The notes beneath the pieces are model-generated. The model worked only from the letters and a program-made list of their open reading frames with translations. It did not search any database and had not been told where the DNA came from. This document shows, one piece after another, positions 8,627 to 48,276 of a stretch of 64,000 nt of DNA. The DNA lies in NCBI GenBank assembly GCA_964610875.1, contig CAZSWP010000018.1, positions 1 to 64,000 of the forward strand, read 5' to 3'. The stretch comes from an uncultured archaeon (GTDB taxonomy: Archaea > Asgardarchaeota > Thorarchaeia > Thorarchaeales > Thorarchaeaceae). The stretch's first letter is position 1. Every line of letters begins with the position of its first letter. The translations under genes and the position numbers were made by a program.

Positions 8627-9481
8627 ATGAAAAGGGGGTTATTAACAGCTGCCAAACACCTGAACAATCCTAGACATTTTTGGTGGGAGATTAGATACTT
8701 CAGAACGGAATAAATTCATAGGTCACCTGACACCTGTGTGCTGACCCCACGGAGTAACGTTCTAGTGCCGTCCCTGGAAGGACAAGACTCCGGTGTCCAG
8801 ATCTGTCCATCTTACAATGAACGGTTTGTAATCCTATTACTAATACTATCTATGGTTAATTCCACTTCTGCCACACATAGTCAAGGTCTTGAGTGGAAAT
8901 ACGAAGAAGGTGCGCAGTATGACTTTAGAGAAGTATATTATCGCTCTTAAAATGAGTCAACAACACTCGTAGAGGATATGGTATACTATGCAATTGCTCC
9001 AGAGTATACTGAACTAGTCGACCCACTAAATGAAAGTAGCATGATACCAATTCGTCGTGCGCCTACTTACTGGTCAAACGGAACAGAAATGAACCTATTA
9101 CCAATTCGTTTTGCTGTGCCTGTAGGCAATTGGTCTCTATTTAGTGAAATAGTTATGAGTCGCTCCGATGATAATAATGGTTACAATATAATTGACACGA
9201 TTGATGTATGGGGATACGAAGCGGAATACCAAGCCGGTATTGACCAAGTCTATCATTCAATGGAATATTCGAAAAACGATGGTGTGTTAGTTCGTTTGGT
9301 TTTTGAATTCACCATTCTAAGTACTACACATTTGACAATAGTAGAGAGGGTGGGTTTAGGACCAAGTATCCTTCAAATTGGCATAACTCTTGTTGCAGCG
9401 ATTGCAGTTGTAGTCGTCTTGGTTATGTACAATCGTTACAAAAAAAAAAATGAAATCTCTTTAAACAAAAAAAGATGGTGA
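8627..9481 (+). pseudogene. Paralog of 7872-8570, disrupted by a mini-element and a nonsense codon
   Basis: Removing 8639-8824 gives MKRGFVILLLILSMVNSTSATHSQGLEW... The in-frame TAA at 8948-8950 aligns with Tyr in the paralog, and the frame continues into ORF 8978-9481. Confidence 0.8.
8639..8824 (+). mobile_element. 186-bp non-autonomous (MITE-like) derivative of the IS607-like element
   Basis: The left end GGG|TT..ACAGCT..CCTAGACATT and the right end TGCCGT..TTACAATGAACGG|TT match the ends of the large element. Excision restores the host frame. Confidence 0.85.
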
Positions 9482-10327: not shown

Positions 10328-10452
10328 TTACAGAGAGCAGTGCTATAACTAGGCCAACAACAAAATGGCATCAATTGATGCATAAAGAACATTAACTGTA
10401 ATATTACCGAATAGAGAAAATTTATATATTAAATGTACAATATTACAGTTAA

Positions 10453-11379: not shown

Positions 11380-12177
11380 TTGAGACTGACTGTAGACAAG
11401 AGTATAAAGCTCGTAGAAAACGAAACGAAAATTATGGACACCAAGAAAGCTCTGGTCACTTTGAAAGCCGGTTGTATATGGTCCTATCTAAAACAGAATG
11501 GTGACAATGTAGGAATCGCTTTCCGAGGTCAATCTCACTTTGCTGTTGATGCTATCGTGCACACCAAACGAGGTGCTGTAGGTGATTCATTCAGTGGTGA
11601 ATTAGGAGGTATTCAACTATTTCTTGGAGAAACCAGCCTTGAGAACCAATCTAGAGATGCAACACAAGGTGATCTTGCTCCTCTCGGATTCTCAAGTGGT
11701 GATGCATTTACCCAACAGGTGGATGAGAAGATCAAAAGCAAGAATGGTGATGTTAGATCGAAGGGCAAGATAGGGAAGGATGAAGGACAGATTCTCATTG
11801 GTGCCAATAAGCAGGATACAGGTATTGTTCTCATAGTCGGTGATGATGATAATCTTGTAGTGACATATGGCAAGAAAGTCCATGTTTCAGGAGATAGAGG
11901 TCACGTTGTTGTGGATAAAGGTGGAGTTAGTATAGCCGGTGACCGTGAAACCATAATAATCGACCGTGATGGAATTCATGGAATTGAGATTCCTGAGATT
12001 GAAATTCCTGATATTGGGAAAGTTGTTGGGCGTGCAGTATCAGAATCCATGAGAGGACTCAAAGGCTTGAAAGGTTTGAAAGGCTTGAAGCGAATGCGTG
12101 GCTTCTCACATGCTGCCCGAGATGCTACTCATGCATGGGATGATGTTGACGACTTCGACTGGGATGACGACGAATAG
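11380..12177 (+). CDS. Hypothetical protein, probably co-transcribed with the ArsR-like gene
   Basis: Directly abuts the upstream stop codon. Beta-rich, with a GLK repeat near the C-terminus. Confidence 0.65.
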   Translation: MRLTVDKSIKLVENETKIMDTKKALVTLKAGCIWSYLKQNGDNVGIAFRGQSHFAVDAIVHTKRGAVGDSFSGELGGIQLFLGETSLENQSRDATQGDLAPLGFSSGDAFTQQVDEKIKSKNGDVRSKGKIGKDEGQILIGANKQDTGIVLIVGDDDNLVVTYGKKVHVSGDRGHVVVDKGGVSIAGDRETIIIDRDGIHGIEIPEIEIPDIGKVVGRAVSESMRGLKGLKGLKGLKRMRGFSHAARDATHAWDDVDDFDWDDDE

Positions 12178-12201
12178 GACCCTTCTTCATGAAAAAAAAT
12201 C

Positions 12202-12227
12202 AACTCTCGTCCAATGGGGCGAGAGTT
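12202..12227. terminator. Stem-loop between convergent genes
   Basis: AACTCTCGTCC-aatg-GGGCGAGAGTT with an adjacent A8 tract (a U tract on the minus strand). Confidence 0.5.
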
Positions 12228-12228
12228 C

Positions 12229-14199: not shown

Positions 14200-16069
14200 T
14201 AGATGCTGCCAGTTCCATCTGAGTAAGAGTTTCTACAATACTTGCATACAACCCACCACGATTTAGTAACTCTTGATGGGAGCCTTTCTCTACAATTCTG
14301 CCTTTTTCCATCATAACAACAGTATCCGCATTTCTCACGGTGCTGAGTCTGTGGGTGATGATGAAAGTGGTACGTCCCACCATAAGGTTCTCAAGCGCTT
14401 GTTGGATCATCATCTCTGTCTTGGCATCAACTGAGCTTGTTGAATCGTCAAGAATGAGTATTTTCGGATTGGCAAGTAAAGCACGAGCTATTGCAATCCT
14501 CTGTTTCTGACCACCACTAAGCGTAACACCTCTCTCTCCAACAACGCTATCGTATCCCTCATCTAATTGCATAATAAAATCGTGAATCATTGCAGCCTTA
14601 GCAGCATTTTGAACTTCTTCCATTGATGCATTTGGCCTAGCAAATGCGATATTCTCACCGATTGTGGATGAGAAGAGAAATGGGTCCTGATGGACCATAC
14701 CTACGCGCTCTCTCAAATTATCTAAGCCGTACTCGCGAACATCATATCTGTCAATCATGAGTATTCCTGGTGTCTGAACTTCGATTGTTCTCCCGTCAAT
14801 CTCCACCTTATCAGATTCTACAAGATATTCCTTCTCTCCAATACTGATTTTTCCGTCCTGCACTTTGTATGTTTTACCATCATATTCGATGTAGGGATCG
14901 CTATCAGCATCATAAAAACGAGGTATTAGATTGACTAGGCTGGTCTTACCTGAACCTGTACCACCGAGAAGTGCAACAACTTGTCCTGCAGGAACATCAA
15001 GAGTGAGGTCCTTGAGAATATGTCTTCCACCAGGATAGCTAAAGAATACATGGTCGAAGGTAACTCTCCCTTCAATCTCCTTGTCAACAGGAACCTCTGG
15101 GTCCGTCACTTCATCCTTATGGTCTAAGATATAGAAAGTTCTCTCCGCGGATGCTGATGCTCTTTGGTACATTCCAACTCCCCAGCTCAGGAAGCGTGCA
15201 GGTAGCATCAACATTCCCACAAGTGTGATGAATGCTACAAATATACCATAGGAGAGTGGGCCATTGCCAGCATCAAATGATATACCACCTAGGTATAGAA
15301 GTAAACCTGTCACAACACCAAACATTGTTGGAAGAAGTGGCCTATAAAAGGCGAATAATCTGAAGGCTTCAACTCTGAGGTCTAAGAATTTCCTATTCTC
15401 TTTCTCAACACGTTCTCTTTCCCTTTCTCCTGCCGCAAATGACTGTACGAGCTTTATGCCCACAATATTTTCTGCCAGTACTGAACTTAGTTCACCGTAT
15501 TGTTCCCTTGCTGCGTAGAATACTGGACGAACACGTTTTGCGAAAGAGTAGATGAAGACAATAATGATAGGGATTAAGAGAAACATATAGAGGGTCAGGC
15601 TGACATCAAGAATGAACATGACTACATAAACACCGAAAAGGGTAGCTGCTCCGATGAAGATGACCCGATATCCCCAGAACAGGAACTCTCTCATTTGTGT
15701 TACGTCTGTTGTGACTCGAGAGAGTAACTGTCCAGTTTCTTCTTTATCATAAAATGATAGGTCCTTTTCCATAAGTGCGTGATAAAGATCTGTACGTAAA
15801 TCATAGATCACATTCTGTGACAGAACTGCTGCACCATACCGTCCTATGATGTCAAATATCATGTACAATGCAGAAAGGAGGGCATAGAGTGCTACACTTG
15901 GAATCAGTTGGTCGTATTGTTCACCATAAATTACAGAATCGATAATATCTGCAAGCACCACTGGCGTCAAGACATTGAATATGGTTCCAACTCCTGCAGC
16001 TGTTAAGAAACCAAAGAATAGCATCTTATGCTTAAGTGCATATTCTGTAAGACGCCTTATGTATCCCAT
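14171..16069 (-). CDS. ABC exporter, fused permease/ATPase (heterodimer subunit)
   Basis: TMD plus GGTGSGKT, LSGGQKQ and a degenerate Walker B (LDDSTS). Confidence 0.95.
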   Translation of the reverse strand: MGYIRRLTEYALKHKMLFFGFLTAAGVGTIFNVLTPVVLADIIDSVIYGEQYDQLIPSVALYALLSALYMIFDIIGRYGAAVLSQNVIYDLRTDLYHALMEKDLSFYDKEETGQLLSRVTTDVTQMREFLFWGYRVIFIGAATLFGVYVVMFILDVSLTLYMFLLIPIIIVFIYSFAKRVRPVFYAAREQYGELSSVLAENIVGIKLVQSFAAGERERERVEKENRKFLDLRVEAFRLFAFYRPLLPTMFGVVTGLLLYLGGISFDAGNGPLSYGIFVAFITLVGMLMLPARFLSWGVGMYQRASASAERTFYILDHKDEVTDPEVPVDKEIEGRVTFDHVFFSYPGGRHILKDLTLDVPAGQVVALLGGTGSGKTSLVNLIPRFYDADSDPYIEYDGKTYKVQDGKISIGEKEYLVESDKVEIDGRTIEVQTPGILMIDRYDVREYGLDNLRERVGMVHQDPFLFSSTIGENIAFARPNASMEEVQNAAKAAMIHDFIMQLDEGYDSVVGERGVTLSGGQKQRIAIARALLANPKILILDDSTSSVDAKTEMMIQQALENLMVGRTTFIITHRLSTVRNADTVVMMEKGRIVEKGSHQELLNRGGLYASIVETLTQMELAASIEQGGVSAE

Positions 16070-16168
16070 TTCTCTGTCCTCTGGGCTATTTCTCTCCTTT
16101 ATGATAAGGCTTGTGTCATTGACATAGAATTAGCACGAGTCTGCAAGGGTTTGATAACAGCTACATGA

Positions 16169-16189
16169 AACCCAGACAAACCTAGACAT
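16169..16189 (+). repeat. Left subterminal repeat (two 10-bp units), inverted partner of 24697-24717
   Basis: AACCCAGACA-AACCTAGACA-T matches the reverse complement of 24697-24717 at 19/21 positions. Confidence 0.8.
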
Positions 16190-16217
16190 TGATTAGGTTA
16201 TAGTTTTACGAAAGACC

Positions 16218-16838
16218 ATGTTCTCAGTAGCACAAGCTGCTCTTCGCCTTGGTGTCTGTGTCAAGACCCTCCATCGATGGGACCATGTAGGCAAGCTCCA
16301 CTGCACGAGGACTCTGGGTGGGCATCGCAGGATCCCCCTCTCTGAAGTCAACCGTCTGCTGGGCATCTTCCATCGGAAGCTCCTCGACACTCCACCTCAA
16401 CGAAAGAGATGCGCCATCTATGCACGAGTATCAGGTCATCGACAGAAGACTGATGGAGACCTTGACAGACAACTTCACACGCTCACACAGGAATGTAAGA
16501 ACCTATTCAGGACCAGCCCCATCGTCCTCTCAGACATCGGTTCCGGACTGAACATGCGACGCAGATGCCTCAAACGGTTATTGAAACTAGCTAGACAAGG
16601 TGTGATCCATGCAGTGCTCCTCACTCATAGGGACAGGCTAGCACGATTTGGAGTGGAACTTATTGAACGCATCCTAGAAGAGTATGGAGTCAAAGTTATT
16701 GTGCTCTATGAGGAGACCCATCAGACCCCACAAGAGGAACTGGTCACTGACATGATGGCCCTGCTAGCCTCCTTCTCAGGGAGGGTCTATGGGCTTCGGG
16801 CCCGACAACACAGCAAGTCTACCACTCTCCAAACCTGA
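16218..16838 (+). CDS. tnpA: IS607-family serine recombinase/transposase TnpA
   Basis: MerR-like HTH (LGVCVKTLHRWD..GGHRR), then YARVS (catalytic Ser), DIGSGLN, RDRLARFG and ELVTD...SFSGRVYGLR. Confidence 0.95.
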   Translation: MFSVAQAALRLGVCVKTLHRWDHVGKLHCTRTLGGHRRIPLSEVNRLLGIFHRKLLDTPPQRKRCAIYARVSGHRQKTDGDLDRQLHTLTQECKNLFRTSPIVLSDIGSGLNMRRRCLKRLLKLARQGVIHAVLLTHRDRLARFGVELIERILEEYGVKVIVLYEETHQTPQEELVTDMMALLASFSGRVYGLRARQHSKSTTLQT

Positions 16839-19800
16839 ATCCTACCTTCTTCATCAGCTGAATCACATCTTCTTCAATAGCTCCGTGTTCTCTGTCTGCA
16901 ATACCATAGCTCTCCAGTGCACTAGTAATATCACTACTGACCGTGACTGGGGAGATGAGGTCTCCTGTGGGAGGTGAGAATGGTGGAATAACTCGGACTC
17001 CCACAACATCTCCAGTAGTGGTTTCAAAGACCGCTTCGATATACCGCATCTTGGTCGTACGGTCAGTACAGAGCTGCACCTCTCTATAGTGTACATCCTC
17101 TCTTGAAAGGACATCTTCTTCAGCAGCAGAGTCCTCCCTGCTTTCTCGTTCTGTTTTATAAAGCTCGGAGATTCCTGCAAGTCGTTCTGTCAGTTCTGTT
17201 TCATTCAACAAAAGGTACTGCCCGATCTCACTCCCCTCCTCCTCCATAGCTTCAATGAGTGCTTCACAGTCCGTTTCCGTGAAGGAATGACAATAGATTT
17301 TGACCTCTGTCCCATCCTCTTCCCATCTCCTGATGGTGAGGGTGTAGTCACCTGCACTTCCAGAAATTTCTCCAATGCATTGGGGTGGGGTCTCACTCCA
17401 TCCGCGACAAATCAGGTCCTCCCGGAGAGAACCAAACACCGTTTCTACGTTTTCAAGGTGAAGGATATCCACCACACTGGAGACGACCTCTTGGAATTCT
17501 GCTAGGATGCTCTCAAGGTCACGAGTCGGGTCCAATTGGAACGAATATAGATTGTTCATCCAGATCTTCCCTGTGGTGAGGGAAACCACATGCCAGTTGA
17601 TGGCAGTCTTGGAGAGAGAGACCTGTAGATTCCATGAGTTTCTGGTCCAGTCGAAATCATCTGGATGAACACTCCGCACTGACTCTTGCAACCTTGGATA
17701 CGACCGGAGGTGATAGTCCTCCACTCCGAGAAGCCCTCGTACATCCCATTTGACCTCATGGAACAGCTGATTCTTGGTATCGAAGAGTCTTGTTGTTTCC
17801 ACCAGGAGTCCTGCTTCAAAGAGGGAGAGGACCACCCCATCATAGGGGGCCAGAGATGAAGTTGAAGAGACTCCCGTTATAGATATTCTGACCTCATTGT
17901 ACCAGTCATCCACCGCATCAAGCTTCATGGTCACTGGAGCTACCTCTTGCATGGAGAGGAGTTCATGACAGGTCGTCGGATACTGGTAGAGGTCACGGAG
18001 GAACCAGCTCCGTTTCACCAGCGGGATGAGAAAGGTCAGTGATCCATCATAGGTGATGTCACTACGATGGTCCCAGCTCAGATAGCCGATAGTGGTTTCA
18101 TACCCCACACCACGACTGATTGGTCGTCTGAGAACAGACACCAGTTCATCTGTGTCAGTAATGCGTTCCTGTACATCCCCTTCTGTGGTCTCGAAGTCAA
18201 TGACATACTCCTCCCATTCCTCGTCAAGAGCAACCGTGAGGGTAACAGGAATGACCTCTTTCTTGAGTTGGACAAGTCGTAGTAGCTCGGTGTCTATCTG
18301 TTGAGATGAAGTCTTGCCAACTACTGGAAGATGGAGATTTTCAAGAGAGAGGGAGGGGACTACGAACGGATTGGAGAGCTTGATCCAGGGGACAATCCCA
18401 TGTTCTCTATTGAGCGTACTATGTTCGAACACATAGGGAGTCCATGTGTCTTCCTCCTCAAGATACAGCCAGAGAATCCTATGTTGTTCCACTTCAGTGA
18501 TTAGAACATCGGTACGTTGTGAAACACCAAGTGCTCCTTGTGCCATCTCATTGAGAACTGCTGGATCTGTTTCACACCGAGACCATCCCTCAGAGAGCCA
18601 TGGTCCTAAAAGTCCTGTTATGCATCCTGTGAGGTAACCATGGGATGTATGAGGGACTACTAGTATAGCTGCAGAGAGGTTGCCTTCCTCTAGCCAGATG
18701 ATATGTCCTGCTCGACTGCTGGTTCTAAGAGAATGCTCAATGTGCAGCTGCATCAGGATCCTTTTTCGCCATTCCAAGTCCCTATGAATGGCATAGAGGT
18801 CATACTTTGCCTCTATATTCTCAGTATCTGAACGCAGTCCCATCTGATAGAGTGTCCATCCTGTGACTGCCTCCCAGAGCGTTTCTCCAAGGGCACTCTG
18901 AAGATCATCATCATCCTCTTGCTGTATGACAGCACAGACCAGAAGAAAGAGATTGTTTCCGTATAGGAGAAAGAGGTCTGGATGCTTCTCCAACGTTCCC
19001 TCCAGTGCCTGTCTGTGGTCAGAGTTCAGAAGGTGAAAGAGCGCTTTCCGTTGTGGACGGAGTGTCTCCCAGAGAGGTACAAGAGTATCTTCAGAGAGGA
19101 TGATCTCTTGGATTTCATACAGTACTTGTAGTAATTGCTTTGAATCATGGCGTCCCGTTCCCTTTATCGAACTGAGTATGCTTTTACATAGAGAGACTAT
19201 CTTCTCACAGGTACTCTGAATCCCTTTTGGAAGCAGTCTTTCGAGAAGATACTGTGCTGCTGAGTAGATTCTCCTAATCTCCCACAGTCGGGAAGCGACC
19301 GTATCTAGAGAAAAATATAAACTGGAGGGAGTGCTTGGTGGTCGGCAGTGTGTCCATATTGTCCCATCCTCATTCTCAGTTAACACTTTTCTGGGGGTTC
19401 TCTCATAGAACCATCTCCGGGTAATCTTGTTGGCTGATGAATGTGTCTTGCTTGAGCGCGGCGATTCAGGAGGTGGTCTGTCAGAGCAGAATCGCACTCT
19501 TTGCATGAGGGTCTGAGATGATGATGCAACTACTTCATGGGAAACAAATGGTATCTTCTCTTCTATGGTTTCATCAAAGACCTCCTCTTCCGACCTTGGT
19601 CTTCCAAGACTGGGAATTAGGTCTTCAGTAGATGTTAACATCTCAACATGCCGTTCTCTGGTGAGTCGTTCAATGGAGCTCTGGATAGATATGAGTCTGG
19701 TTTCTCTTGCATACATGTTTCTCTGTGTGTGTACTTCTCTCCTCACATCTGCTTCAGTGATATGTCCGTCCCGCCGAGAGCTCCCTCTGAACCGTCGAGA

Positions 19801-22335
19801 GAAGTCAATGAGGTATGGCACATGAATCATGGTCTGCCAAGGTCGTGTCTTTGTTGGGATGTCCTGCACGATGATTCGCAGGTCCTCACGCCATGGGACC
19901 AGATTACCAAAGCAACGAGGATGGAGAGGGATGTTGTAGAGAATCTCATCGAGGTGATACCGTCGTGGTGAGTCAAAGGGAAGAGGCGAGATACCGTTCC
20001 GCTGGTAGTCTGCTGAGAATCGAGTATGCTGTACTCCCTCATCGATCCAGATGAGATTCGTATTCTTGGTAGGGAGTTGTTCAAGTAGTAGGAGTTCCAG
20101 CCGCTTGAGAAGATATCCCTCAGAAGAGGGAGCAACCTTCTTGAGTTCACTCCACCCATCAAGAATGATTATGTTTTGTTGTTCTTTGTCAATATGTTCT
20201 AGAATCTGCTCCAGTGTATTCTCTGTGTCTGCGAGCAGTTCATCCACTGGAGTTTCCGGAGAGATGAACACGATGTCCTTCAAGATGGCTTGAAGTTCAT
20301 GATATTCTTGCAGAGTCAATTTCTTTTCACCAAGGAGGAAGTCTAAGCCAAATCGACTCTGCACAAGCTGCTCAGAAGAGAAGTCACCAAGGAGGTCTAT
20401 CCAATAGACCTTGATAGGGTCTTCTTCTACCTCTCTGCATTCTCTAATGTGATGGAGGAGATGATAGTTCCGAGACCGATATGCAGCGGTCGTTCCTGAA
20501 GAGGTGGGTGCAGGAATTGATACATAGAGGGTGAAGAACCGTTCGTCTGCAACTCTGTCTTTGAAAGGATTTTCAACAGTTGGAATTGTTGGTTCAGCAA
20601 GGTCTTGTAGCAGATAAATGGGACCTCTTGAGGGCAGAGTGAGTAATGCAACACGTTCTTTGATAGTATAAGAAGATGGAGCATCTTCTGTGGGGCATTC
20701 TCCTACTTCTAGCTTCTTACTGATAGCTTCCAGAATCCTTTGGAAATCATCAAAGACATCCTCTGGTGACTGGTCCGTGTCCAGTATGATAATGCCTTTC
20801 CAGAGAAACATGGGTGGAGTCATGTCTGAATCCATTATGTCACCGTATTCATCTAGCAATAGGTTCTCATAGGCGCGGAGTTGGTCAATGTGCTCCTTAT
20901 CAGGTGGCGAGATTAGTAATGTGTCCCATTCCCCTTGTGTCAGTCCTCGCTTCCAGACATGGGACACTGGAACATAGTCGTCCTTGGTCTTACTCCCAAT
21001 CTTCTTACCAAAAATATTGAATTCAAACCCCGTCTTGGTCTTGACCTCTAAGACCATGACCGGAGTCCAGATGCACCTCTTGCCCACCTTTCGTCTGATG
21101 AAGAATGTTAGGTCTACCTGTCCCTGTCTGTTCTTGAGAGGGAGTTCTCCCACAACTAGGACGGATGAAGGTGTATCCATCATTTTATCTCCTGCAAAGA
21201 CGACCTGTTTCAGGGACTTGGGATGATGCAGGGCTGAGAGGAGGACACGATGCCAGCGAGTTCCCTCCTCTGAACTCAACTGGAGCATTTGCTTTGTGAG
21301 CTTCTCCACATCTCGATCATGGAGGATACCCTGATCTATCAGATTGAGAATATGGCAATGCTGTTTCTTCTGTTCCTCGTTATCAGAGTTCTCTAGACTT
21401 GCTTCTATGATACTCTTGAGATAGTCAAGCGAGTACTCCGGTTCATCATCAAGACTGGCAGTGATGGATCTCCTCTCTCCGATATGCCGCCCATAGAGTG
21501 CCCGTAACTCAAGAATGATGTCCCAAAGAATCTTACGGGCATCTTTGATAAAGTAGGGTTTTCCATCTTTGCCTTCCGTGTAGACCCAGTCAAGATAGGG
21601 TCGAAGCTTGAGAATGAGGCGTCTGATATAGCGATGAGCCTCCGTACGAGGGACATTGTGGATGAAGCACTGACGGCAAAGCTCGTACACGTGACACCTG
21701 ATCATATCAACAAAGTCAAGACTGGGAAGGGTGGGATGAGCGAGAAAGACCTGTGGTGTCGTGGAAGTGCCACTGTAGCCTGCTTTCCAGTAGACCTTGA
21801 CATTCTCATCCACACTTGGTTTTACGTGTTCATACTCTCCAGTCTGTTTCAGACTGTCGATGAGTTCCTTGGCATAGACCTTGTATGAACCGTCAGGATA
21901 CCTCCAGATTTGAAAGAACCGAGGTTCAGGAAAGGGATACCTGGTCATAGCGAGCTCTCGAAGCCGTGCCCCAGCGTAATTGAGCAATGCATTGAGAGGC
22001 CCTACTGTACCTTTTGCCCAATCATAGACCCTCTTTCGTTCCTTGTTTCCATAGGGGACTGTACTCATCCAGAGAAATTGAAGGAACGTTTTGCGGATAT
22101 TTGCTTCCTTCTTACTCAAAGGAAAATAGTCGGGCCTTATGCCTTCTTGTTCGTCTAGTGTGTGCCGAACTTCATTCCACATCTTGTAGATGGACTTTCT
22201 TATACTCCGATACTGATGTTTGGTTCGGGACTCGATTATCTTCACTAATCCCCGAATGCCCTTGTAGGACGCCCGTGTAAGGACCACATTTGGTCGGAAC
22301 GCTCGCGCTATTCTTCCCATTCTTATTCTGTACAA
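16819..22335 (-). CDS. Giant (1838 aa) element-encoded protein with PD-(D/E)XK nuclease motifs and a degenerate P-loop-like region
   Basis: Long uninterrupted ORF. It contains GELPL..GQVDL..VLEVKTK..QLRAY, then APTSSGTT / YWIDL / IIILDGW. A homolog lies at 61271-64000. The start may be the ATG at 22320. Confidence 0.8.
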   Translation of the reverse strand: MYRIRMGRIARAFRPNVVLTRASYKGIRGLVKIIESRTKHQYRSIRKSIYKMWNEVRHTLDEQEGIRPDYFPLSKKEANIRKTFLQFLWMSTVPYGNKERKRVYDWAKGTVGPLNALLNYAGARLRELAMTRYPFPEPRFFQIWRYPDGSYKVYAKELIDSLKQTGEYEHVKPSVDENVKVYWKAGYSGTSTTPQVFLAHPTLPSLDFVDMIRCHVYELCRQCFIHNVPRTEAHRYIRRLILKLRPYLDWVYTEGKDGKPYFIKDARKILWDIILELRALYGRHIGERRSITASLDDEPEYSLDYLKSIIEASLENSDNEEQKKQHCHILNLIDQGILHDRDVEKLTKQMLQLSSEEGTRWHRVLLSALHHPKSLKQVVFAGDKMMDTPSSVLVVGELPLKNRQGQVDLTFFIRRKVGKRCIWTPVMVLEVKTKTGFEFNIFGKKIGSKTKDDYVPVSHVWKRGLTQGEWDTLLISPPDKEHIDQLRAYENLLLDEYGDIMDSDMTPPMFLWKGIIILDTDQSPEDVFDDFQRILEAISKKLEVGECPTEDAPSSYTIKERVALLTLPSRGPIYLLQDLAEPTIPTVENPFKDRVADERFFTLYVSIPAPTSSGTTAAYRSRNYHLLHHIRECREVEEDPIKVYWIDLLGDFSSEQLVQSRFGLDFLLGEKKLTLQEYHELQAILKDIVFISPETPVDELLADTENTLEQILEHIDKEQQNIIILDGWSELKKVAPSSEGYLLKRLELLLLEQLPTKNTNLIWIDEGVQHTRFSADYQRNGISPLPFDSPRRYHLDEILYNIPLHPRCFGNLVPWREDLRIIVQDIPTKTRPWQTMIHVPYLIDFSRRFRGSSRRDGHITEADVRREVHTQRNMYARETRLISIQSSIERLTRERHVEMLTSTEDLIPSLGRPRSEEEVFDETIEEKIPFVSHEVVASSSQTLMQRVRFCSDRPPPESPRSSKTHSSANKITRRWFYERTPRKVLTENEDGTIWTHCRPPSTPSSLYFSLDTVASRLWEIRRIYSAAQYLLERLLPKGIQSTCEKIVSLCKSILSSIKGTGRHDSKQLLQVLYEIQEIILSEDTLVPLWETLRPQRKALFHLLNSDHRQALEGTLEKHPDLFLLYGNNLFLLVCAVIQQEDDDDLQSALGETLWEAVTGWTLYQMGLRSDTENIEAKYDLYAIHRDLEWRKRILMQLHIEHSLRTSSRAGHIIWLEEGNLSAAILVVPHTSHGYLTGCITGLLGPWLSEGWSRCETDPAVLNEMAQGALGVSQRTDVLITEVEQHRILWLYLEEEDTWTPYVFEHSTLNREHGIVPWIKLSNPFVVPSLSLENLHLPVVGKTSSQQIDTELLRLVQLKKEVIPVTLTVALDEEWEEYVIDFETTEGDVQERITDTDELVSVLRRPISRGVGYETTIGYLSWDHRSDITYDGSLTFLIPLVKRSWFLRDLYQYPTTCHELLSMQEVAPVTMKLDAVDDWYNEVRISITGVSSTSSLAPYDGVVLSLFEAGLLVETTRLFDTKNQLFHEVKWDVRGLLGVEDYHLRSYPRLQESVRSVHPDDFDWTRNSWNLQVSLSKTAINWHVVSLTTGKIWMNNLYSFQLDPTRDLESILAEFQEVVSSVVDILHLENVETVFGSLREDLICRGWSETPPQCIGEISGSAGDYTLTIRRWEEDGTEVKIYCHSFTETDCEALIEAMEEEGSEIGQYLLLNETELTERLAGISELYKTERESREDSAAEEDVLSREDVHYREVQLCTDRTTKMRYIEAVFETTTGDVVGVRVIPPFSPPTGDLISPVTVSSDITSALESYGIADREHGAIEEDVIQLMKKVGFRFGEW

Positions 22336-22508
22336 TACCTTGTTCTTATTTACTTATAAGTAATAGTACTTTTATTAAGAAACCATAATATAGAGTTTAA
22401 AACATTATAATCACTCAAAATCAAAAAATAAGTTCTCATAATATTCTAATCTTGATAACTTTATAACTAAATATGACAATATAACCCCTGCTATAGAATA
22501 GAGAGTGG
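22336..22508. promoter_or_regulatory. AT-rich divergent promoter region (cargo / tnpB)
   Basis: Very AT-rich spacer inside a GC-richer element, with TATA-like CTTATAAG (~22353) and TTTATAA (~22460). Confidence 0.55.
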
Positions 22509-24704
22509 ATGACGATGAAGCAAGACTCACCCCGGTGTCATCTCCGGGTGCAGAAGGAGGAATCTCCGAAGCAGAAGACAATAGATGACAACTTTATAAC
22601 TGATTCATCGACGTCCGAAGAGAACAGACCACTGAAGACCGGGTTGAAATACCTTGTAGAGTCCTTCACACTCTGTTCTATTGATCGTGAAGTGAACAAG
22701 AAGGGGAAGATAAAGCGACCTGGTCCTCGCTTTCGTCGAAAGACAAGAGCTCATGACATCCAGACTCCTTTCGAGCAAGCTACTGGGAGAAAAGTCCAGA
22801 ACCCCGACCTATCCCTATTAGGTTCTTACTTTGAGAAGTATGTTGAGTTAGTGAATCTTGTCCTTGAGCGAGTGTATTCTCATCAGGGAAGGATTGATGC
22901 TCTAGGGGAGGAGCTGCATTCCTATCGTGGTCAGGGGTATGTCCTGTTGAAGAAAGAGGAATACCTCACCTATAGCCGCAATGAAGAGGTCAAGGCCCAG
23001 TGCTTTGAACGCATGTATCGCAATGTCTTGGAACAGGCTGCGAGGGTCATTCATTCGAACTGGATGCGAAGACAGTTGATGCTCAGTGCTATTACTTCTA
23101 TCAAAGAGGATAGAGACATCGTGCTGTCTTTCTTGAAGAACAAGTACATCCCAGCTAAGTTGGCAAAGGTGGTGCGTGAGAGTTGCGAGTGTGTCAAGAA
23201 CAATGGTTCAGGATATTACTACTCCCTGTCTGTATTGAAGCAGCTCAGGAAAAGGATAGATGAACACATCCTCTCAGAGCGAGGAGAACCCCTTGGCTCT
23301 CGAAAGTCCCAGCGAAGACGAGTGAGTGGCTATCTCAGAGATACTACTGAAGGTGCTGGTGTTCTTGCCAGTGTTGATGCCCTCTTACAGGAGTTTATTG
23401 AGAGTGGATATTCCTTTGAAACGCCAAGGATGTTCTCCTATACCGGGGATTTCTCAGCTTCCACAGAGAACAGTCCCGGACAGGGCTACTGGTACTCACG
23501 GGACCCTGAGAAGGAGCATGAGATATTCTTCTTCCTCAAACTCCCCGAACCCCTTGAAGGTACAGAACAAATGGGTTCACCCTATAGAACAAACACACTT
23601 CCTTTCCGATTTCTCAATTGGTTACCACGAGCTGCAAAGAGGGACAGAGAGAAGGCAAAATTAGCTGATAAAGAAGGGAAATCACTTCGAGCCAGGAAGC
23701 TCAGGTTTCGAGCACGAAGGTTCGAGGACATGCAGCAACAGCTTATCAACACCATTGAGCTCCAACATGCGACCTATCAACTTGCACGGTTGCAGTCCAG
23801 ACGAGTGAAGGACACTGAAAAGATCAAGATACTACAGGAGAAGATAGACGGACTTCGAGAAGCACGGACCTGTGGCCCGCCAAGACTTCTTCTTCGTGGA
23901 CACCGAGTAGAACTCCAGATTCCTTTCTTACCACCAACCAGAGAGATGCTGGATGATGAACTTGGGACAACCCGGACCTATCACAGGCGAGCAGGTGCAG
24001 ACCGGGGTGTCCGAGTCCCCATTGTCCTCTCTGTACGGAATGGCGAGGGGGAGTTTGTGGATGAGCTTGTGGCTTGTGATGAACTACTCCAGAAACGGGA
24101 CCTCCTCAGGGAGCAGACCAAAGCCCTGAGCTCACAAGTCAAACGGATGCGGAACAACTGGGACCGCAAGTACCCTGACCATTCTCGTTCCTATCCCGAC
24201 CACCTGTTGAAGAAGGAACGACACCTTACAGCAATCTGGAGAAAGATTCGCAGACTCGATAGAGAGATAGCTCGTCAGGTGGCAAGTCAGACGGTCTGGT
24301 TCTGTGAGATGCACGGAGTGAAGATGCTGTACTTCGAGAACCTCAAGAACTACACACCTGCCGCCGGGTATGGAAATCTGTCATGGCGATTGAGCTCAAA
24401 CCTCTGGTCAAAGGTTCTGGATACGGTCAGGTACATGCGCCAGTCCCTCGGACACAAGTATGGAGGGATATGGACCGTGAGTCCGGCATGGACCTCTCAG
24501 AAGTGTCATGTCTGCGGAGAGCGAGGCATTCGCGTAGAAAAACCGGATGCCACAGATGAATACAGAGGAGGAGAGTTCTTCCATTGTGAAAATTGTGGAT
24601 GCAGAATCCATGCGGATGTCAATGCCGCACGAAACATCATTGATGTGAAGTTCAAGACACCCAGTGCCGTTTCTGGGCAGACAACACTAGACCCCCATGT
24701 CTAG
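22509..24704 (+). CDS. tnpB: Large TnpB/Cas12-like RuvC RNA-guided nuclease (731 aa)
   Basis: RuvC-I GADRG, RuvC-II YFENL, Zn finger TSQKCHVCG..CENCG and RuvC-III HADVNAARNI. It lies at the right end of an IS607-like element. Confidence 0.9.
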   Translation: MTMKQDSPRCHLRVQKEESPKQKTIDDNFITDSSTSEENRPLKTGLKYLVESFTLCSIDREVNKKGKIKRPGPRFRRKTRAHDIQTPFEQATGRKVQNPDLSLLGSYFEKYVELVNLVLERVYSHQGRIDALGEELHSYRGQGYVLLKKEEYLTYSRNEEVKAQCFERMYRNVLEQAARVIHSNWMRRQLMLSAITSIKEDRDIVLSFLKNKYIPAKLAKVVRESCECVKNNGSGYYYSLSVLKQLRKRIDEHILSERGEPLGSRKSQRRRVSGYLRDTTEGAGVLASVDALLQEFIESGYSFETPRMFSYTGDFSASTENSPGQGYWYSRDPEKEHEIFFFLKLPEPLEGTEQMGSPYRTNTLPFRFLNWLPRAAKRDREKAKLADKEGKSLRARKLRFRARRFEDMQQQLINTIELQHATYQLARLQSRRVKDTEKIKILQEKIDGLREARTCGPPRLLLRGHRVELQIPFLPPTREMLDDELGTTRTYHRRAGADRGVRVPIVLSVRNGEGEFVDELVACDELLQKRDLLREQTKALSSQVKRMRNNWDRKYPDHSRSYPDHLLKKERHLTAIWRKIRRLDREIARQVASQTVWFCEMHGVKMLYFENLKNYTPAAGYGNLSWRLSSNLWSKVLDTVRYMRQSLGHKYGGIWTVSPAWTSQKCHVCGERGIRVEKPDATDEYRGGEFFHCENCGCRIHADVNAARNIIDVKFKTPSAVSGQTTLDPHV

Positions 24705-25125
24705 CTTTGTCTAGGTTACAATCAACGGTTCTACCTAACTCTCTACACTTCTCAAGCATCTCTTCATTAGGATAATCTTTTACCTTAACCGGCTGTCCGT
24801 CAATGAGTAAAGCATCTACATTCTGAAGCGCATCAGCAATCTCATCGGGAGCTTCTCCACTCCACCCATATGAACCAAATGCTGCAGCTCTAATACCTTT
24901 TAGTGATGTCATCTTCGATAATATTTGTTTAATCTTTGGAAGAGGTCTCTTCATCCGCGTTGAACTTCCCATAGCAATAGCGCATGCATCATCGAGGTCT
25001 GTATAGTCTTTTGCCTCTATAAGAACACATTCCTTCCCAGATGCAGTTACTCCTTCGCACACTGCTTCAGCCATTGTCTTTGTTCTACCTCGTGTTGACT
25101 CATAGATCACATTTACCTTTGACAT
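24652..25125 (-). CDS. Flavodoxin-like (FprA C-terminal-like) protein, 3' end interrupted by the element
   Basis: Motifs VIYESTRGRT, AFGSYGWSGEA and EKCRELGR. Its native last codons lie at 16130-16149, and the current tail is element-derived. Confidence 0.85.
   Translation of the reverse strand: MSKVNVIYESTRGRTKTMAEAVCEGVTASGKECVLIEAKDYTDLDDACAIAMGSSTRMKRPLPKIKQILSKMTSLKGIRAAAFGSYGWSGEAPDEIADALQNVDALLIDGQPVKVKDYPNEEMLEKCRELGRTVDCNLDKARHGGLVLSAQKRHWVS
24660..24748 (+). ncRNA. Predicted omegaRNA 3' scaffold (to 24728) plus flank-derived guide; 5' extent unknown
   Basis: Hairpin CCCAG/CTGGG whose loop CCGTT is complementary to the terminal AACGG (pseudoknot). A second hairpin is AGACAA-ca-CTAGAC/GTCTAG-ct-TTGTCT. 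Two other copies show compensatory changes. Confidence 0.65.
24697..24717 (-). repeat. Right subterminal repeat (two 10-bp units)
   Basis: A-TGTCTAGCTT-TGTCTAGGTT, inverted relative to 16169-16189. Confidence 0.8.
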
Positions 25126-25174
25126 AATCTGTAGATGATTATGCATGTAACTAAAGATTTCTGAATGGAATTTT

Positions 25175-25873
25175 TTGTACAATTGTGTGAAAATGTCAGG
25201 CGATATTGACCTTCTCAAAAAGAAAGCTGGTATTGTATGTGAACTTCTCATTGATAATTATGGTGATAAAATAGTAGAGCGAAAACTACCTCCTATTGAT
25301 GAACTCATTCTCACAATACTGAGTCAGAATACTAACGATGTCAATATGTTCCGTGCTTTTAAATCTCTCAAGGAAAAATATGTTGACTGGAATGAAGTAC
25401 TCAATGCACCTGAGGAAGAGATTGGACAAGCCATAGTTTCATCGGGGTTTTTCAGAGTGAAGGCAAAACGAATCAAGGCAACTCTACAAGAGATTATGAA
25501 GCGGAGAGGATCATTAGACATCGCATTTCTAGAAGACATGCCTGTTGAAGAAGCTACTGAATGGCTTACTTCTCTCCATGGAGTTGGTCCAAAGACTGCG
25601 GCAATAGTCCTACTATTTTGTTTTGAAAAGTCTACTTTACCAGTAGATACACATGTGTGGCGATTGAGTAAGAGATTGGGCTTAGTACCAAAGAGAACTA
25701 GTAGGGAGAAAACTCAGACACTACTTGAGAGTCTTATTCCTCCCAAGTGTATCTTCTCACTTAATCATAATCTTATCAAACATGGACGAACAATCTGCAA
25801 AGCACGAACCCCTCTATGTGAAGATTGTTTTCTTCAGAGTTTATGTAGGTATTACAGTGAAAAGAGCAGATAA
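25175..25873 (+). CDS. nth: Endonuclease III (HhH-GPD glycosylase)
   Basis: Motifs ILSQNT, LHGVGPKTA, PVDTHV and the FeS motif CKARTPLCEDCFLQSLC. Confidence 0.9.
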   Translation: MYNCVKMSGDIDLLKKKAGIVCELLIDNYGDKIVERKLPPIDELILTILSQNTNDVNMFRAFKSLKEKYVDWNEVLNAPEEEIGQAIVSSGFFRVKAKRIKATLQEIMKRRGSLDIAFLEDMPVEEATEWLTSLHGVGPKTAAIVLLFCFEKSTLPVDTHVWRLSKRLGLVPKRTSREKTQTLLESLIPPKCIFSLNHNLIKHGRTICKARTPLCEDCFLQSLCRYYSEKSR

Positions 25874-25893
25874 AACAATTCTGAAATGTTCAA

Positions 25894-27285
25894 ATGAAGG
25901 ATAAAGAAGTCTGTGACATCAACACCTTCAAATGCAGCATTACTCAGATTGTTATCTATAGTAAATACTCCGGAGGCCGAAAGCATTTGCTAGGACCACT
26001 TTTTCTGATTGGTGCGGCATTAGTCTTCTCCTTTATTGGTGCGGTTGTAATGAAGCGTCTTGGGATACCACAGATTTTGGGTTTCATGCTCGCAGGAATT
26101 TTTCTTGGACTATTCGGGGTGTTTACTGATGAAACATGGTCCAATCTCTTTCCCCTTGTAGATCTAGCTCTTGGCCTTATTGGATACAATATCGGTTTGG
26201 AAATAAGAAAAGATGTCTTTAGTGGTAAAATTCGTCAGATGAGTACCATCCTAATTCTAGAATCCATCATGACTTTTATCATAGTAACACTCCTAGCAAA
26301 TTGGATTCTTGGACAATGGCATCTGGCAATTGTATTTGGGGCACTAGCTTCGGCGACTGATCCTGCATCAACCGTGATGGTGATTTGGGAGCGCCACTGC
26401 AAAGGAGACCTCACCGATACACTGATGTTTGTGCTTGCACTTGACGATGTTGTAGCAATAGTTTTGGCCAATATTTCTATCTCTCTAGCTATAATGTACT
26501 ATGCTGCACCAGGTACCGTAGTACTGTTGGATATAGGATTATTCATTTTCTATGATATTGGAGTTTCAGCTTTAATTGGTGGTATCCTAGGAGTCGCCAT
26601 GGTCGTATTCATCAATAGAGAAAATGACAGAAGTCGACTTCTTGAGCTCGAACTTGGTATGATTGTTCTCCTTGTTGGAATCATGGTTTGGTTGGAGATC
26701 AGTTCAATTCTAGCTTGTATGGTATTTGGTTTCGTTGTTGGTAATTATGTGAAACCAGAAAAGGACCCGATCAACCACACACTGAAGACAGTGATGTCTC
26801 CTATTGTTATGTTCTTCTTTGTATATGTTGGTGCTTCGATTGACCTCACTTATATTGTGGGTGGAGTAGTCATCATTCTCGTCATTGTATATGTCTTGGG
26901 GCGGAGTACAGCAAAATATGCAGGAGCCTATATTGGAGGTCATATTACAAATACACCTTTTTTGACCAAGAAATATCTAGGATCGTGTCTAATGTCTCAA
27001 GCAGGCGTTGCCGTTGGTCTGGCCCTTGTTATTGAAGGCTATTTTTCTGAGTTGGGATCTGAAGCGGTAGCTGCAGGAGCTCTCATTCTGAATGTGGTTG
27101 CTTTGACCACTATGATTCTTCAGGTCTTTGGACCTTTATTTGCCAGTATTGGATTGCGGAGAGCAGGAGAATATCCAGACGATCTTGATGTTGATTTATC
27201 TGATTGTGTGGAAACAACACTTCCCGAAGATGCAAAAAATGTTGGAAGTAAATCTTATTCTGAAATAGATGATTTTGAAGTTTAA
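25894..27285 (+). CDS. Cation:proton antiporter (CPA2/Kef-like)
   Basis: About 12 TM helices, with ATDPAST, ALDD, FFVYVG and QAGVAVGL. Confidence 0.85.
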   Translation: MKDKEVCDINTFKCSITQIVIYSKYSGGRKHLLGPLFLIGAALVFSFIGAVVMKRLGIPQILGFMLAGIFLGLFGVFTDETWSNLFPLVDLALGLIGYNIGLEIRKDVFSGKIRQMSTILILESIMTFIIVTLLANWILGQWHLAIVFGALASATDPASTVMVIWERHCKGDLTDTLMFVLALDDVVAIVLANISISLAIMYYAAPGTVVLLDIGLFIFYDIGVSALIGGILGVAMVVFINRENDRSRLLELELGMIVLLVGIMVWLEISSILACMVFGFVVGNYVKPEKDPINHTLKTVMSPIVMFFFVYVGASIDLTYIVGGVVIILVIVYVLGRSTAKYAGAYIGGHITNTPFLTKKYLGSCLMSQAGVAVGLALVIEGYFSELGSEAVAAGALILNVVALTTMILQVFGPLFASIGLRRAGEYPDDLDVDLSDCVETTLPEDAKNVGSKSYSEIDDFEV

Positions 27286-27326
27286 GCCGTTCATTTTATG
27301 ATACATTCAAATCATATCTAAGAATC

Positions 27327-27620
27327 ATGCCAGAAATAACCTGTATCAGAGAGAAACCATGGGATATTCAGTGTCGTGTAATAAAACAGGATGGAACATG
27401 TGCCATAGGACATAATATTGGTGATGAAGTCGTCTTCACCTCTGTTTCAATTAATGGAAAGATATGCATACATGCACTTTATTCGATGATGCCTAAAGTG
27501 GTAGCTATGATGCATAATGCGATATTCCCATGGCTAGAAGACCAGTGCAAAGTAACCCATGCATGTCCTGACGGATTCAATCCAGTCATATTTGAGTTGA
27601 AACGTATAGAACCAGAATGA
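27327..27620 (+). CDS. TIGR04076-like small Cys protein
   Basis: Pattern GTCAIGH..GD..GKICIHAL..ACPD...VIFEL. Confidence 0.75.
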   Translation: MPEITCIREKPWDIQCRVIKQDGTCAIGHNIGDEVVFTSVSINGKICIHALYSMMPKVVAMMHNAIFPWLEDQCKVTHACPDGFNPVIFELKRIEPE

Positions 27621-27632
27621 GTAGGGCTAGGT

Positions 27633-27962
27633 TTACTCGTCGCTTTCTGTGAGCGTGGGAAAAGTGTCCTGTAAATCGTCCAGAACAGCTTTATCCTGCG
27701 GCCGATTTGACATGACCATGAGTGAGCGTCCATACCAACCACAATCGATACAATAGTATGCAGGATGAAAACTACCAATATATCCGAGGTCATAGAAAGA
27801 TGTCAGTCTCACAAGACGTGCACTCTTACATAATGGGCAAATAGGAATATCAGCATCAATGCCCTTTCGTTTGAGCTCATCGAGTGCTTCTCGAACTGCC
27901 TTCAGTCTTCTTAGATGCTGCAACTCTTTTTTGCTGAGCTGGCCTGATATCGACAATGCCAT
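27633..27962 (-). CDS. Zn-ribbon hypothetical protein
   Basis: Motif CPLCKS...YCIDCGWYG. Confidence 0.7.
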   Translation of the reverse strand: MALSISGQLSKKELQHLRRLKAVREALDELKRKGIDADIPICPLCKSARLVRLTSFYDLGYIGSFHPAYYCIDCGWYGRSLMVMSNRPQDKAVLDDLQDTFPTLTESDE

Positions 27963-47814: not shown

Positions 47815-48276
47815 ATGGCAAAGCTCGAACAATCTGGTGTCTTTCTGTTATCCGATAGTTTTGAGTCAACCACTCAATTCTATGAAAATATACTATCCCC
47901 GGTGCCGTTGCTGGGCTGACAACATTGGACTACCATGTCTAGGTTACAATCAACGGTTGAGTTTGGTTCATTTGGCTTCTGAATATATAGCTCGACCAAG
48001 TAAATATGCCTGAACCTTGGTTCAAGGAAAAAGTGTCTGAGAATTACTTGAACTACTTAGAGAAAGGTGTTATTGATTCACTACCGTTATGCTCCCAATG
48101 TGATAATCCCTTTTCAAACGGATGATATTCAGGAAATACACAAGCAAATCTTTGAGAGAAAACCTAAACCCGAATTCATCACGGATATCCTGCGAGTCAC
48201 TTTCAGCATTCCTTACTCGTTCTTCGAATTCGCCAACCCAGAAGGAAACATGGTAGAGGTTTTTCAATTCACCTGA
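47815..48276 (+). pseudogene. VOC/glyoxalase-family pseudogene containing an element remnant
   Basis: The N-terminus ...STTQFYENIL and the C-terminus FEFANPEGNMVEV are separated by an element end, stops and frameshifts. Confidence 0.6.
47898..47956 (+). mobile_element. Solo right end of the IS607-like element
   Basis: CCCGGTGCCGTTGCTGGGCTGACAACATTGGAC..CATGTCTAGGTTACAATCAACGG aligns with 24660-24728, lacking one 10-bp unit. Confidence 0.85.

What the first reader, a model, noticed from the sequence alone, without database searches (positions are those of the whole stretch)
24660..24748. omegaRNA scaffold supported by covariation across three right-end copies
Stem 1 is CCCAG/CTGGG here, CCCGG/CTGGG at 47898 (G-U) and TCTAG/CTGGA at ~8761 (compensatory change plus G-U). 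Its loop always contains GCCGT, complementary to the terminal ACGG (CCGTT/AACGG here, CCGTTG/CAACGG in the solo end). This is the pseudoknot-before-guide arrangement known for TnpB RNAs. The base of stem 2 is AGACA/TGTCT here and GGACA/TGTCC in the mini-element, and its inner CTAGAC/GTCTAG becomes TTGGAC/GTCTAG (G-U) in the solo end. Tolerance of G-U pairs points to RNA-level selection on the + strand. The guide would start at 24729.
Basis: partly seen in the sequence, partly recalled or inferred. Interest (0 to 1): 0.78.

Follow-up and report, generated by a model that had tools for sequence, protein, structure and literature searches.

The report
Guide-RNA scaffold of archaeal IS607 TnpB
The stretch is the folded "handle" of the guide RNA that a transposon-borne, RNA-guided DNA cutter (TnpB) of an Asgard archaeon uses to find the empty site its transposon left; it is a well-supported new example of a known device.

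Summary
Confirmed. Window 24660-24729 is the 3' domain of the omegaRNA (reRNA) scaffold of a 731-aa TnpB. It lies at the right end of an 8.6-kb IS607-type element (16147-24729) in a Thorarchaeota MAG.

The genome holds about 60 right-end copies, and a covariance model finds the motif in 43 of 61 genomes of the family.

Across 31 tnpB-linked copies from 29 genomes, three elements carry compensatory changes:
- stem 1;
- the base of stem 2;
- a 7-bp pseudoknot between the stem-1 loop and the last 7 nt.

- The invariant T at 24729 pairs in the pseudoknot. By analogy with ISXfa1 it is the last scaffold base, so the guide most likely starts at 24730.
- The solo end more likely keeps the stem-2 base than the inner stem.
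- The G-U argument is only moderately strong.

Joining 16146 to 24730 across GGGT restores a normal flavodoxin C-terminus, so the guide flank once abutted a GGG(T) motif. No RNA data exist. The scan has already reported this system on other DNA of this genome and in other Thorarchaeota. New here is a second, covarying scaffold-like module at the 5' end of tnpB.

The parts
22509..24704 (+). tnpB-like gene (731 aa), an RNA-guided nuclease candidate
   Evidence: Pfam Cas12f1-like_TNB scores 1.7e-13. NCBIfam guided_TnpB scores 2.8e-15, below its cut-off. D498, E610, D703 and four Cys are invariant in 15 homologs. More than 160 homologs of about 710 aa are named Thorarchaeota.
24617..24645 (+). Upstream stem 0 of the scaffold, inside the RuvC-III codons (24617-24624 pairs with 24638-24645)
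   Evidence: 84% of cells are paired in 31 tnpB-linked copies. One pair covaries strongly (CG 9, GC 9, UA 2). Support is weaker than for the other helices, and a 4-bp alternative exists.
24660..24677 (+). Stem 1 hairpin (24660-24664 with 24673-24677; loop 24665-24672)
   Evidence: Found in the minimum-energy fold. 92-94% of cells are paired, and 4-5 of 6 pairs show changes on both sides.
24666..24672 (+). 5' strand of the pseudoknot (loop positions 2-8)
   Evidence: It pairs with 24723-24729. 95-96% of cells are paired, and 4-5 of 7 pairs show changes on both sides. The pseudoknot was not part of the model that made alignment A4, and A5 is a plain MAFFT alignment.
24679..24712 (+). Stem 2 (outer 24679-24684 with 24707-24712; inner 24687-24692 with 24699-24704)
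   Evidence: Found in the minimum-energy fold. The outer base covaries, with GC, AU, UA and CG types. The inner stem varies in sequence and length and is 67-84% paired. The tnpB stop codon is 24702-24704.
24713..24722 (+). Conserved unpaired linker ending in ACAAT (24718-24722)
   Evidence: Invariant or nearly invariant columns in A1 and A3.
24723..24729 (+). 3' strand of the pseudoknot; contains the GG core (24727-24728) and the fixed right-flanking T (24729)
   Evidence: All flanks diverge after this T. The T pairs with loop G or A in nearly all rows.
24730..24749 (+). Predicted guide (length about 16-20 nt, inferred, not measured)
   Evidence: The flank is unique to this copy. In the reconstructed empty site it directly follows GGGT.
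16147..16224 (+). Left end of the same element, starting with GGGT (16147-16150), the candidate TAM and crossover core
   Evidence: The left-end profile hits here at 6.8e-12. GGGT is nearly invariant at 57 left junctions (56 or 57 of 57 at three positions, 55 at the third), and the 5' flank is not conserved.
16218..16838 (+). tnpA, an IS607-type serine recombinase
   Evidence: Pfam Resolvase 1.3e-20 plus MerR/HTH_17.
8636..8825 (+). Gene-less mini-element with the same scaffold (3' domain 8750-8825)
   Evidence: Left-end profile 3.8e-15. Covariance model 89.6 bits. A TATA-like box lies 135 nt before its end.
47887..47957 (+). Solo right end (no left end nearby)
   Evidence: Covariance model 50.1 bits. 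No left-end hit nearby.
22531..22589 (+). Second, scaffold-like module in codons 8-27 of tnpB (hairpin 22531-22548; ACAAT 22578-22582; 7-mer 22583-22589 complementary to loop 22537-22543)
   Evidence: Present in 22 homolog loci. 98 of 105 pseudoknot cells are paired, against 87.9 +/- 2.2 in shuffles (0 of 5000 as high).

Best explanation
Window 24660-24729, probably extended upstream to about 24617, encodes the scaffold of the omegaRNA (reRNA) of the 731-aa TnpB whose gene it overlaps. The element is an IS607-type transposon that a serine recombinase (TnpA) moves by crossover at a GG core.

Inferred mechanism:
- The RNA is read out of the right end into the flank, either from the tnpB mRNA or from a promoter of its own.
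- It folds into consecutive stem-loops. The loop of stem 1 pairs with the last 7 nt to form a pseudoknot.
- The roughly 16-20 flank nucleotides from 24730 act as the guide.
- When TnpA excises the element, the donor site is rejoined as left flank, GGG(T), guide-matching flank.
- TnpB with its omegaRNA should recognise GGG(T) as its TAM and cut this empty site, so that repair from a sister copy restores the element.
- The occupied site reads CGG(T) at the same place and should be spared.

Shown here: the structure and its covariation, the protein family with intact catalytic residues, the element's ends, and the empty-site junction.

Inferred only: transcription, processing, the TAM, cleavage and homing.
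For: 1. Position. The structure spans the last 15 codons of tnpB and ends at the boundary where about 60 copies in this genome stop being alike.

2. Protein. The ORF is of the TnpB family, and the RuvC residues D498, E610, D703 and four zinc-finger Cys are invariant in 15 homologs.

3. Covariation in tnpB-linked copies from 29 genomes:
- Alignment A4: 20 of 23 pairs changed on both sides, 89% of cells paired against 25-43% when slid, 0 of 500 shuffles.
- A5, a structure-blind MAFFT alignment: pseudoknot 96% paired, and its seventh pair reads GC 12, CG 10, UA 2, UG 2, AU 1.
- RNAalifold finds stem 1, the stem-2 base and stem 0 on its own.

4. The pairing is specific. In elements whose stem-2 base reads GCAC/GTGC, GTAC/GTAC or GTGC/GCAC, the TGGACA repeats of the left end and the nearby unpaired GTCC repeat stay unchanged.

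5. IS607 context. tnpA is a serine recombinase. Left junctions read GGGT and right junctions read CGGT. This is the same self/non-self difference at position -3 as CboIS607 (TGGG versus TCGG).

6. Empty site. Joining 16146, GGGT and 24730 gives a 138-aa flavodoxin ending in LGRTLADSC. Homologs are 137-139 aa and end the same way, for example LGKSLSDSC.

7. Mini-elements without any ORF keep the fold and carry a TATA-like box at a fixed -135.

8. A pseudoknot before the guide, and a fixed right-flanking base inside the scaffold, are published for IS607 TnpBs.
Against: - There is no expression evidence.
- In the mini-element alignments A1 and A3 the 3' strand of the pseudoknot is almost invariant, so there the knot rests on conserved complementarity alone.
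- In this window's copy the seventh pseudoknot pair is a U-C mismatch.
- G-U does not clearly outnumber A-C in this genome's own mini-elements (49 to 34).
- The 3' half of stem 2 coincides with repeats that look like TnpA binding sites, so DNA-level constraint is mixed in.
- The copies are related by descent, so shuffle counts overstate significance.
- The protein scores below NCBIfam's TnpB cut-offs, and its only PDB sequence match is weak (LaTranC, E = 0.002).
Confidence: 0.88

Rival explanations
1. The conserved right end is only a DNA site. It would hold binding sites and the crossover site for the serine recombinase TnpA, and the apparent stems would be inverted repeats bound by a dimeric HTH protein.
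For: The left-end profile matches the right end on the opposite strand, at the repeated CTAGACA / TGTCTAG motif. The GG core lies in the last bases. The single-sequence fold is as stable on the minus strand.
Against: - Serine recombinases act on double-stranded DNA, so a hairpin loop need not pair with the terminus. Yet that pairing covaries.
- Changes in the stem-2 base are confined to the two pairing partners, while the other repeats stay the same.
- The 5' module keeps stem 1 and the pseudoknot but none of the TGTCYAG repeats.
- Stem 1 is not a repeat found in the left end.
Confidence: 0.04
2. It is a structured 3' end of the tnpB mRNA, serving stability, termination or translational control, and has no guide function.
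For: It overlaps the stop codon. There are no RNA data to show a processed small RNA.
Against: - About 50 gene-less mini-elements keep the fold without any ORF and carry their own TATA-like box.
- The structure always ends exactly at the mobile element's boundary.
- The architecture matches experimentally tested IS607 guide RNAs.
Confidence: 0.04
3. The scaffold is of the omegaRNA type, but this particular copy, or the whole family in this genome, is no longer active and is an evolutionary relic.
For: - The seventh pseudoknot pair is mismatched here.
- This genome's mini-elements carry many A-C mismatches in the pseudoknot and the inner stem.
- Only one full-length tnpB of this family was found in the assembly.
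- The solo end at 47957 and the remnant at C4:79168 are decayed.
Against: - The ORF is intact with all catalytic residues.
- tnpA is intact.
- Near-identical mini-element copies (97-100%) indicate recent movement.
- Right ends at contig ends suggest further collapsed full-length copies.
Confidence: 0.1

Closest known systems
ISXfa1 (Xylella fastidiosa) IS607 TnpB reRNA (NAR 2023, PMC10711439)
   Same: - The RNA lies at the right end of a serine-recombinase transposon.
- It has three predicted stem-loops plus a pseudoknot that is needed for activity.
- Crossover is at a GG core, and the TAM is GGG.
- The fixed right-flanking nucleotide belongs to the scaffold, not the guide.
   Different: - This one is archaeal (Thorarchaeota).
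- TnpB is 731 aa.
- No Rfam family matches; no direct comparison with the ISXfa1 reRNA sequence was made.
- The element is 8.6 kb and carries a 1838-aa gene between tnpA and tnpB.
- Nothing has been tested experimentally here.
CboIStron IS607 TnpB omegaRNA (bioRxiv 10.1101/2023.11.20.567912)
   Same: - The TAM is TGGG and the scaffold ends in UCGG, so self and non-self differ at position -3. Here the corresponding motifs are GGG(T) and CGG(T).
- The pseudoknot between the first stem-loop and the scaffold's 3' end is essential and can be rescued by compensatory changes.
   Different: - No group I intron is present here (no Rfam hit in the window).
- There is no conserved T before GGG; the flank is only A-rich.
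ISDra2 TnpB omegaRNA (IS200/IS605)
   Same: The guide RNA overlaps the 3' end of tnpB, has a pseudoknot in its scaffold, and takes its guide from the flank.
   Different: - ISDra2 uses a Y1 transposase and single-stranded DNA hairpin ends.
- Its guide starts at the first flank base.
- Its TAM is TTGAT.
PATE-like gene-less elements that encode omegaRNAs (bioRxiv 10.1101/2023.03.14.532601)
   Same: They are mini-elements that keep both ends and a guide-RNA scaffold, and that must be served in trans by TnpA and TnpB.
   Different: The mini-elements here are of the IS607 type, are archaeal, number about 50 in one genome, and carry a conserved TATA-like box in front of the scaffold.

Membership tests
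IS607-family TnpB omegaRNA / reRNA | Encoded at the right end of the element, overlapping the 3' end of tnpB on the same strand | tested here: met
   The ORF ends at 24704 and the element at 24729. The same arrangement is seen in 31 homolog loci.
IS607-family TnpB omegaRNA / reRNA | Partner protein is a TnpB with a RuvC D-E-D triad and a zinc finger | tested here: met
   The scores lie below NCBIfam's family cut-offs, so this is a distant TnpB.
IS607-family TnpB omegaRNA / reRNA | The element is mobilised by a serine recombinase TnpA, with a GG core at both ends | tested here: met
   tnpA carries Resolvase plus MerR domains. Left ends read GGGT and right ends read CGGT. Reconstruction of the empty site supports the boundaries. 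Recombination itself was not tested.
IS607-family TnpB omegaRNA / reRNA | Consecutive stem-loops plus a pseudoknot between a hairpin and the scaffold's 3' end | tested here: met
   Covariation is shown.
IS607-family TnpB omegaRNA / reRNA | The RNA is made and extends about 16-20 nt into the flank | not testable with these tools
   No RNA run holds the stretch.
IS607-family TnpB omegaRNA / reRNA | TAM-dependent, RNA-guided cleavage of the donor joint | not testable with these tools
   This needs a bench assay.
Any curated Rfam family | Match at the gathering score | tested here: not met
   There are 0 matches in the window. The only hit at E up to 10 near the site is a chance snoRNA match at E = 5.7.

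The most novel reading that the evidence does not exclude
The scaffold's 3' domain exists twice in each element of this TnpB family. A second copy has the same parts: a hairpin, a variable stem, ACAAT, and a 7-mer that pairs with the hairpin loop. It sits in codons 8-27 of tnpB, just after the start codon (window 22531-22589). Its sequences differ from those of the right end, and they covary across 22 homolog loci.

The reading not excluded by the evidence is this: it is a pseudo-guide-RNA handle by which TnpB binds the 5' end of its own mRNA and limits its own translation. Alternatively it may yield a second RNA with a fixed guide. I found no such feature described for TnpB in the papers read.
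Probability: 0.3. Interest if true: 0.6.

Novelty: new member of a known kind. Interest (0 to 1): 0.4.

Why it matters
- It shows that the guide-RNA architecture worked out for bacterial IS607 TnpBs also holds for a large family of oversized TnpBs (about 710 aa) in Asgard archaea. The shared features are the stem-loops, the pseudoknot that includes the crossover core, and the fixed flanking base.
- It gives an exact scaffold, a likely guide start and a candidate TAM, GGG(T). These would let the nuclease be tested directly.
- Dozens of promoter-bearing mini-elements per genome amount to a dispersed set of guide RNAs served by one or a few nuclease genes.
- As biology it is expected rather than surprising.

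Tried and rejected
- RNA evidence: no RNA holder is listed for window 22300-25300; only DNA runs of one microbial-mat study hold it.
- Laying the contigs of those DNA runs on 8000-27900 gave fragmentary cover at about 5x. No empty-site joint appeared. Loose ends only confirmed where copies stop being alike, at about 8826 and 24659.
- The search for related loci with P0001 in genome contigs found nothing. The genome search did find relatives.
- Rfam gave nothing useful.
- PDB by sequence gave only a weak LaTranC match.
- I looked in this genome for a target of the sequence that follows the 5' module. Only chance matches with 2-3 mismatches turned up, and my search word started 3 nt late.
- I first considered IS200/IS605 single-stranded DNA hairpin ends as a rival. 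I dropped this once tnpA proved to be a serine recombinase.
- Two tnpB homologs in other genomes stand alone, without tnpA or the giant ORF. One of them keeps a left end and a tnpA remnant.
Full report
**What is at the site**

Window 22509-24704 (+) is a 731-aa ORF. It matches Pfam Cas12f1-like_TNB at 1.7e-13. It also matches NCBIfam guided_TnpB and Cas12f2, but below their cut-offs.

More than 160 proteins of about 710 aa are 46-70% identical to it. Those that carry names are from Thorarchaeota MAGs. In an alignment of 15 of them, D498, E610, D703 and four zinc-finger Cys are invariant.

The finding (24660-24748) covers three things: the last 15 codons, the stop codon (24702-24704) and 44 nt beyond it.

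**The observation**

The minimum-energy fold of 24655-24729 is exactly his stem 1 and two-part stem 2. Its energy is -21.8 kcal/mol with z = -2.2. The reverse strand folds as well, so thermodynamics alone decides nothing.

**More copies in the same genome**

The window is contig 18 of a 3.75-Mb assembly. A profile search finds 60 right ends in it.
- Most belong to gene-less mini-elements of 190-220 nt.
- These fall into several subfamilies, 70-80% alike between subfamilies and 97-100% within them.
- All copies stop being alike right after AACGG plus one T. That T is present in all but a few.

**Covariation in the mini-elements**

RNAalifold, run on 40 copies from this genome, finds three helices on its own: stem 1, the base of stem 2 and a further upstream stem 0. 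All three carry compensatory changes.

I then counted a full structure that includes the pseudoknot:
- 83% of cells are paired, against 30-47% when the partners are slid.
- 14 pairs changed on both sides.
- 0 of 500 shuffles reach three of the five measures (cells paired, cells changed on both sides, covariation score); 3 of 500 reach the count of such pairs, and 97 of 500 the count of further pair types.

A covariance model of the last 76 nt (R1) matches 43 of 61 genomes sampled from the family, in 13 of 16 genera, with up to 59 copies in one genome. One copy from each of 30 genomes gives the same picture. In these mini-element sets the pseudoknot is 88-96% complementary. Its 3' strand hardly varies, however, so covariation cannot prove the knot there.

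**Covariation in the tnpB-linked right ends**

I fetched the 3' ends of tnpB homologs from 29 genomes. Every locus with an alignable end has the motif at the end of the gene.

In alignment A4:
- 20 of 23 pairs changed on both sides.
- 5 of the 7 pseudoknot pairs are among them.
- The pseudoknot was not part of the model that made the alignment.

In A5, a plain MAFFT alignment:
- The pseudoknot is 96% paired.
- Its seventh pair is the last loop base with the C or G that precedes AACGG. It reads GC 12, CG 10, UA 2, UG 2, AU 1.

Stem 0 lies in the RuvC-III codons (24617-24624 with 24638-24645). It is 84% paired and has one strongly covarying pair. It is less secure than the other helices, and RNAalifold prefers a 4-bp alternative there.

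**RNA or DNA?**

The transposase is a serine recombinase. The ORFs at 16218-16838 and 60669-61283 each carry MerR-HTH plus Resolvase domains, and each follows a left-end motif. Such enzymes work on double-stranded DNA, so they give no reason for a hairpin loop to pair with the terminus.

The right end does carry, in inverted orientation, the CTAGACA repeats of the left end. These are probably TnpA sites, and they overlap the 3' half of stem 2. However, in elements whose stem-2 base has changed (GCAC/GTGC, GTAC/GTAC, GTGC/GCAC), the left-end repeats and the neighbouring unpaired repeat stay unchanged. The changes therefore follow the pairing and not the protein's specificity.

The G-U argument is only moderate. 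In the well-supported helices, G-U to A-C is:
- 39:8 in A3;
- 85:16 in A5;
- 49:34 in this genome's own mini-elements.

**Boundaries, TAM and guide**

At 57 left junctions GGGT is nearly invariant (56 or 57 of 57 at three positions, 55 at the third G). The 5' flank is merely A-rich. Right junctions read CGGT.

This mirrors CboIS607, where the TAM is TGGG, the scaffold ends in UCGG, and self is told from non-self at position -3.

In ISXfa1 the fixed right-flanking nucleotide was shown to belong to the scaffold. Here the T at 24729 pairs with loop G or A in nearly every row.

The window's only left ends are at 8636, 16148 and 60599. Joining 16146, GGGT and 24730 turns the flavodoxin-like ORF on the minus strand from 157 aa, with a foreign tail, into 138 aa ending in LGRTLADSC. 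Its homologs are 137-139 aa and end, for example, in LGKSLSDSC or LGRALAGSC.

It follows that 16147-24729 is one insertion of 8.6 kb, and that the guide-matching flank once directly followed GGG(T). That is what the homing model needs.

**The mini-elements**

A TATA-like box lies at a fixed -135 from the right end in 34 of about 40 complete mini-elements of this genome. Elements of other genomes carry one too, though not always at that distance. That puts a start site close to the 5' foot of stem 0. The idea that gene-less elements encode omegaRNAs served in trans is already published for IS605 PATEs.

**A second module**

The covariance model also gave weak hits inside the 5' ends of tnpB ORFs. 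All 22 homolog loci that could be scored, and the window itself (22531-22589), carry a hairpin, a variable stem, ACAAT and a 7-mer complementary to the hairpin loop. This module lies just after the start codon.

The loop and 7-mer sequences differ between loci and covary, for example GTCATCT:AGATGAC, GCCAGTC:GACTGGC and GTCGTCC:GGACGAC. In all, 98 of 105 cells are paired, against 87.9 +/- 2.2 in shuffles, and 0 of 5000 shuffles reach that.

The module lacks the TnpA-like repeats. It independently supports the pseudoknot fold, and it is itself unexplained.

**Verdict**

This is an archaeal member of the known IS607 TnpB guide-RNA kind. Earlier follow-ups of this scan reached the same reading on other DNA of this genome and in other Thorarchaeota. 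Expression and activity remain untested.

Noticed in passing
window 22531-22589 (and L085-L113, 5' ends of tnpB homologs): A second, scaffold-like RNA module lies in codons 8-27 of tnpB. It has a hairpin, a variable stem, ACAAT, and a 7-mer that pairs with the hairpin loop. The loop and 7-mer covary across 22 loci. It encodes the Arg-rich N-terminus (RRRPR). Its function is unknown; autoregulation by TnpB binding is my guess.
   Followed up: partly
window 16147-24729: The IS607-type element is 8.6 kb long. Between tnpA and tnpB, on the minus strand, it carries a 1838-aa ORF with no Pfam match (16819-22335). A second, diverged copy of the same three-gene layout starts at 60599; its giant ORF is 32% identical. 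Two tnpB homologs in other genomes lack tnpA and the giant ORF.
   Followed up: partly
window 24652-25251 (-): The insertion replaced the last 6 codons of a flavodoxin-like gene with 25 codons read from the transposon's right end. The empty-site join restores a tail like that of the homologs.
   Followed up: yes
mini-elements, e.g. window 8691-8697; own genome: A TATA-like box (TTATATA and variants) lies at a fixed 135 nt before the right end in 34 of about 40 mini-elements. It is placed so that transcription would start at the foot of stem 0.
   Followed up: partly
window 24687-24719 (-) and L085:12146-12179 (-): The left-end profile matches the right end in inverted orientation, at the repeated CTAGACA / TGTCTAG motif. 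These are probably TnpA binding sites, and they share sequence with the 3' half of stem 2.
   Followed up: partly
G000 contig ends C35:2-63, C35:38688-38742, C39:33341-33395, C86:1-57: Nearly identical right ends sit at contig ends. They suggest multi-copy full-length elements that broke the assembly.
   Followed up: no
G000:C4:79089-79168 (L002, L052): A right end with a remnant of the tnpB coding tail but no detectable tnpB ORF. Its stem-2 base is kept through a compensatory AGACG/CGTCT change.
   Followed up: partly
A5 columns 35 and 47 (window 24614 and 24626): The third positions of two Ala codons in the HADVNAA motif covary (GC 9, CG 5, UA 3 and others; 10 of 31 broken). This hints at a small alternative hairpin inside the coding tail.
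   Followed up: no
window 43538-44164: Two tandem 300-nt repeats, 76% identical, lie inside the 617-aa ORF on the minus strand (42821-44674).
   Followed up: no
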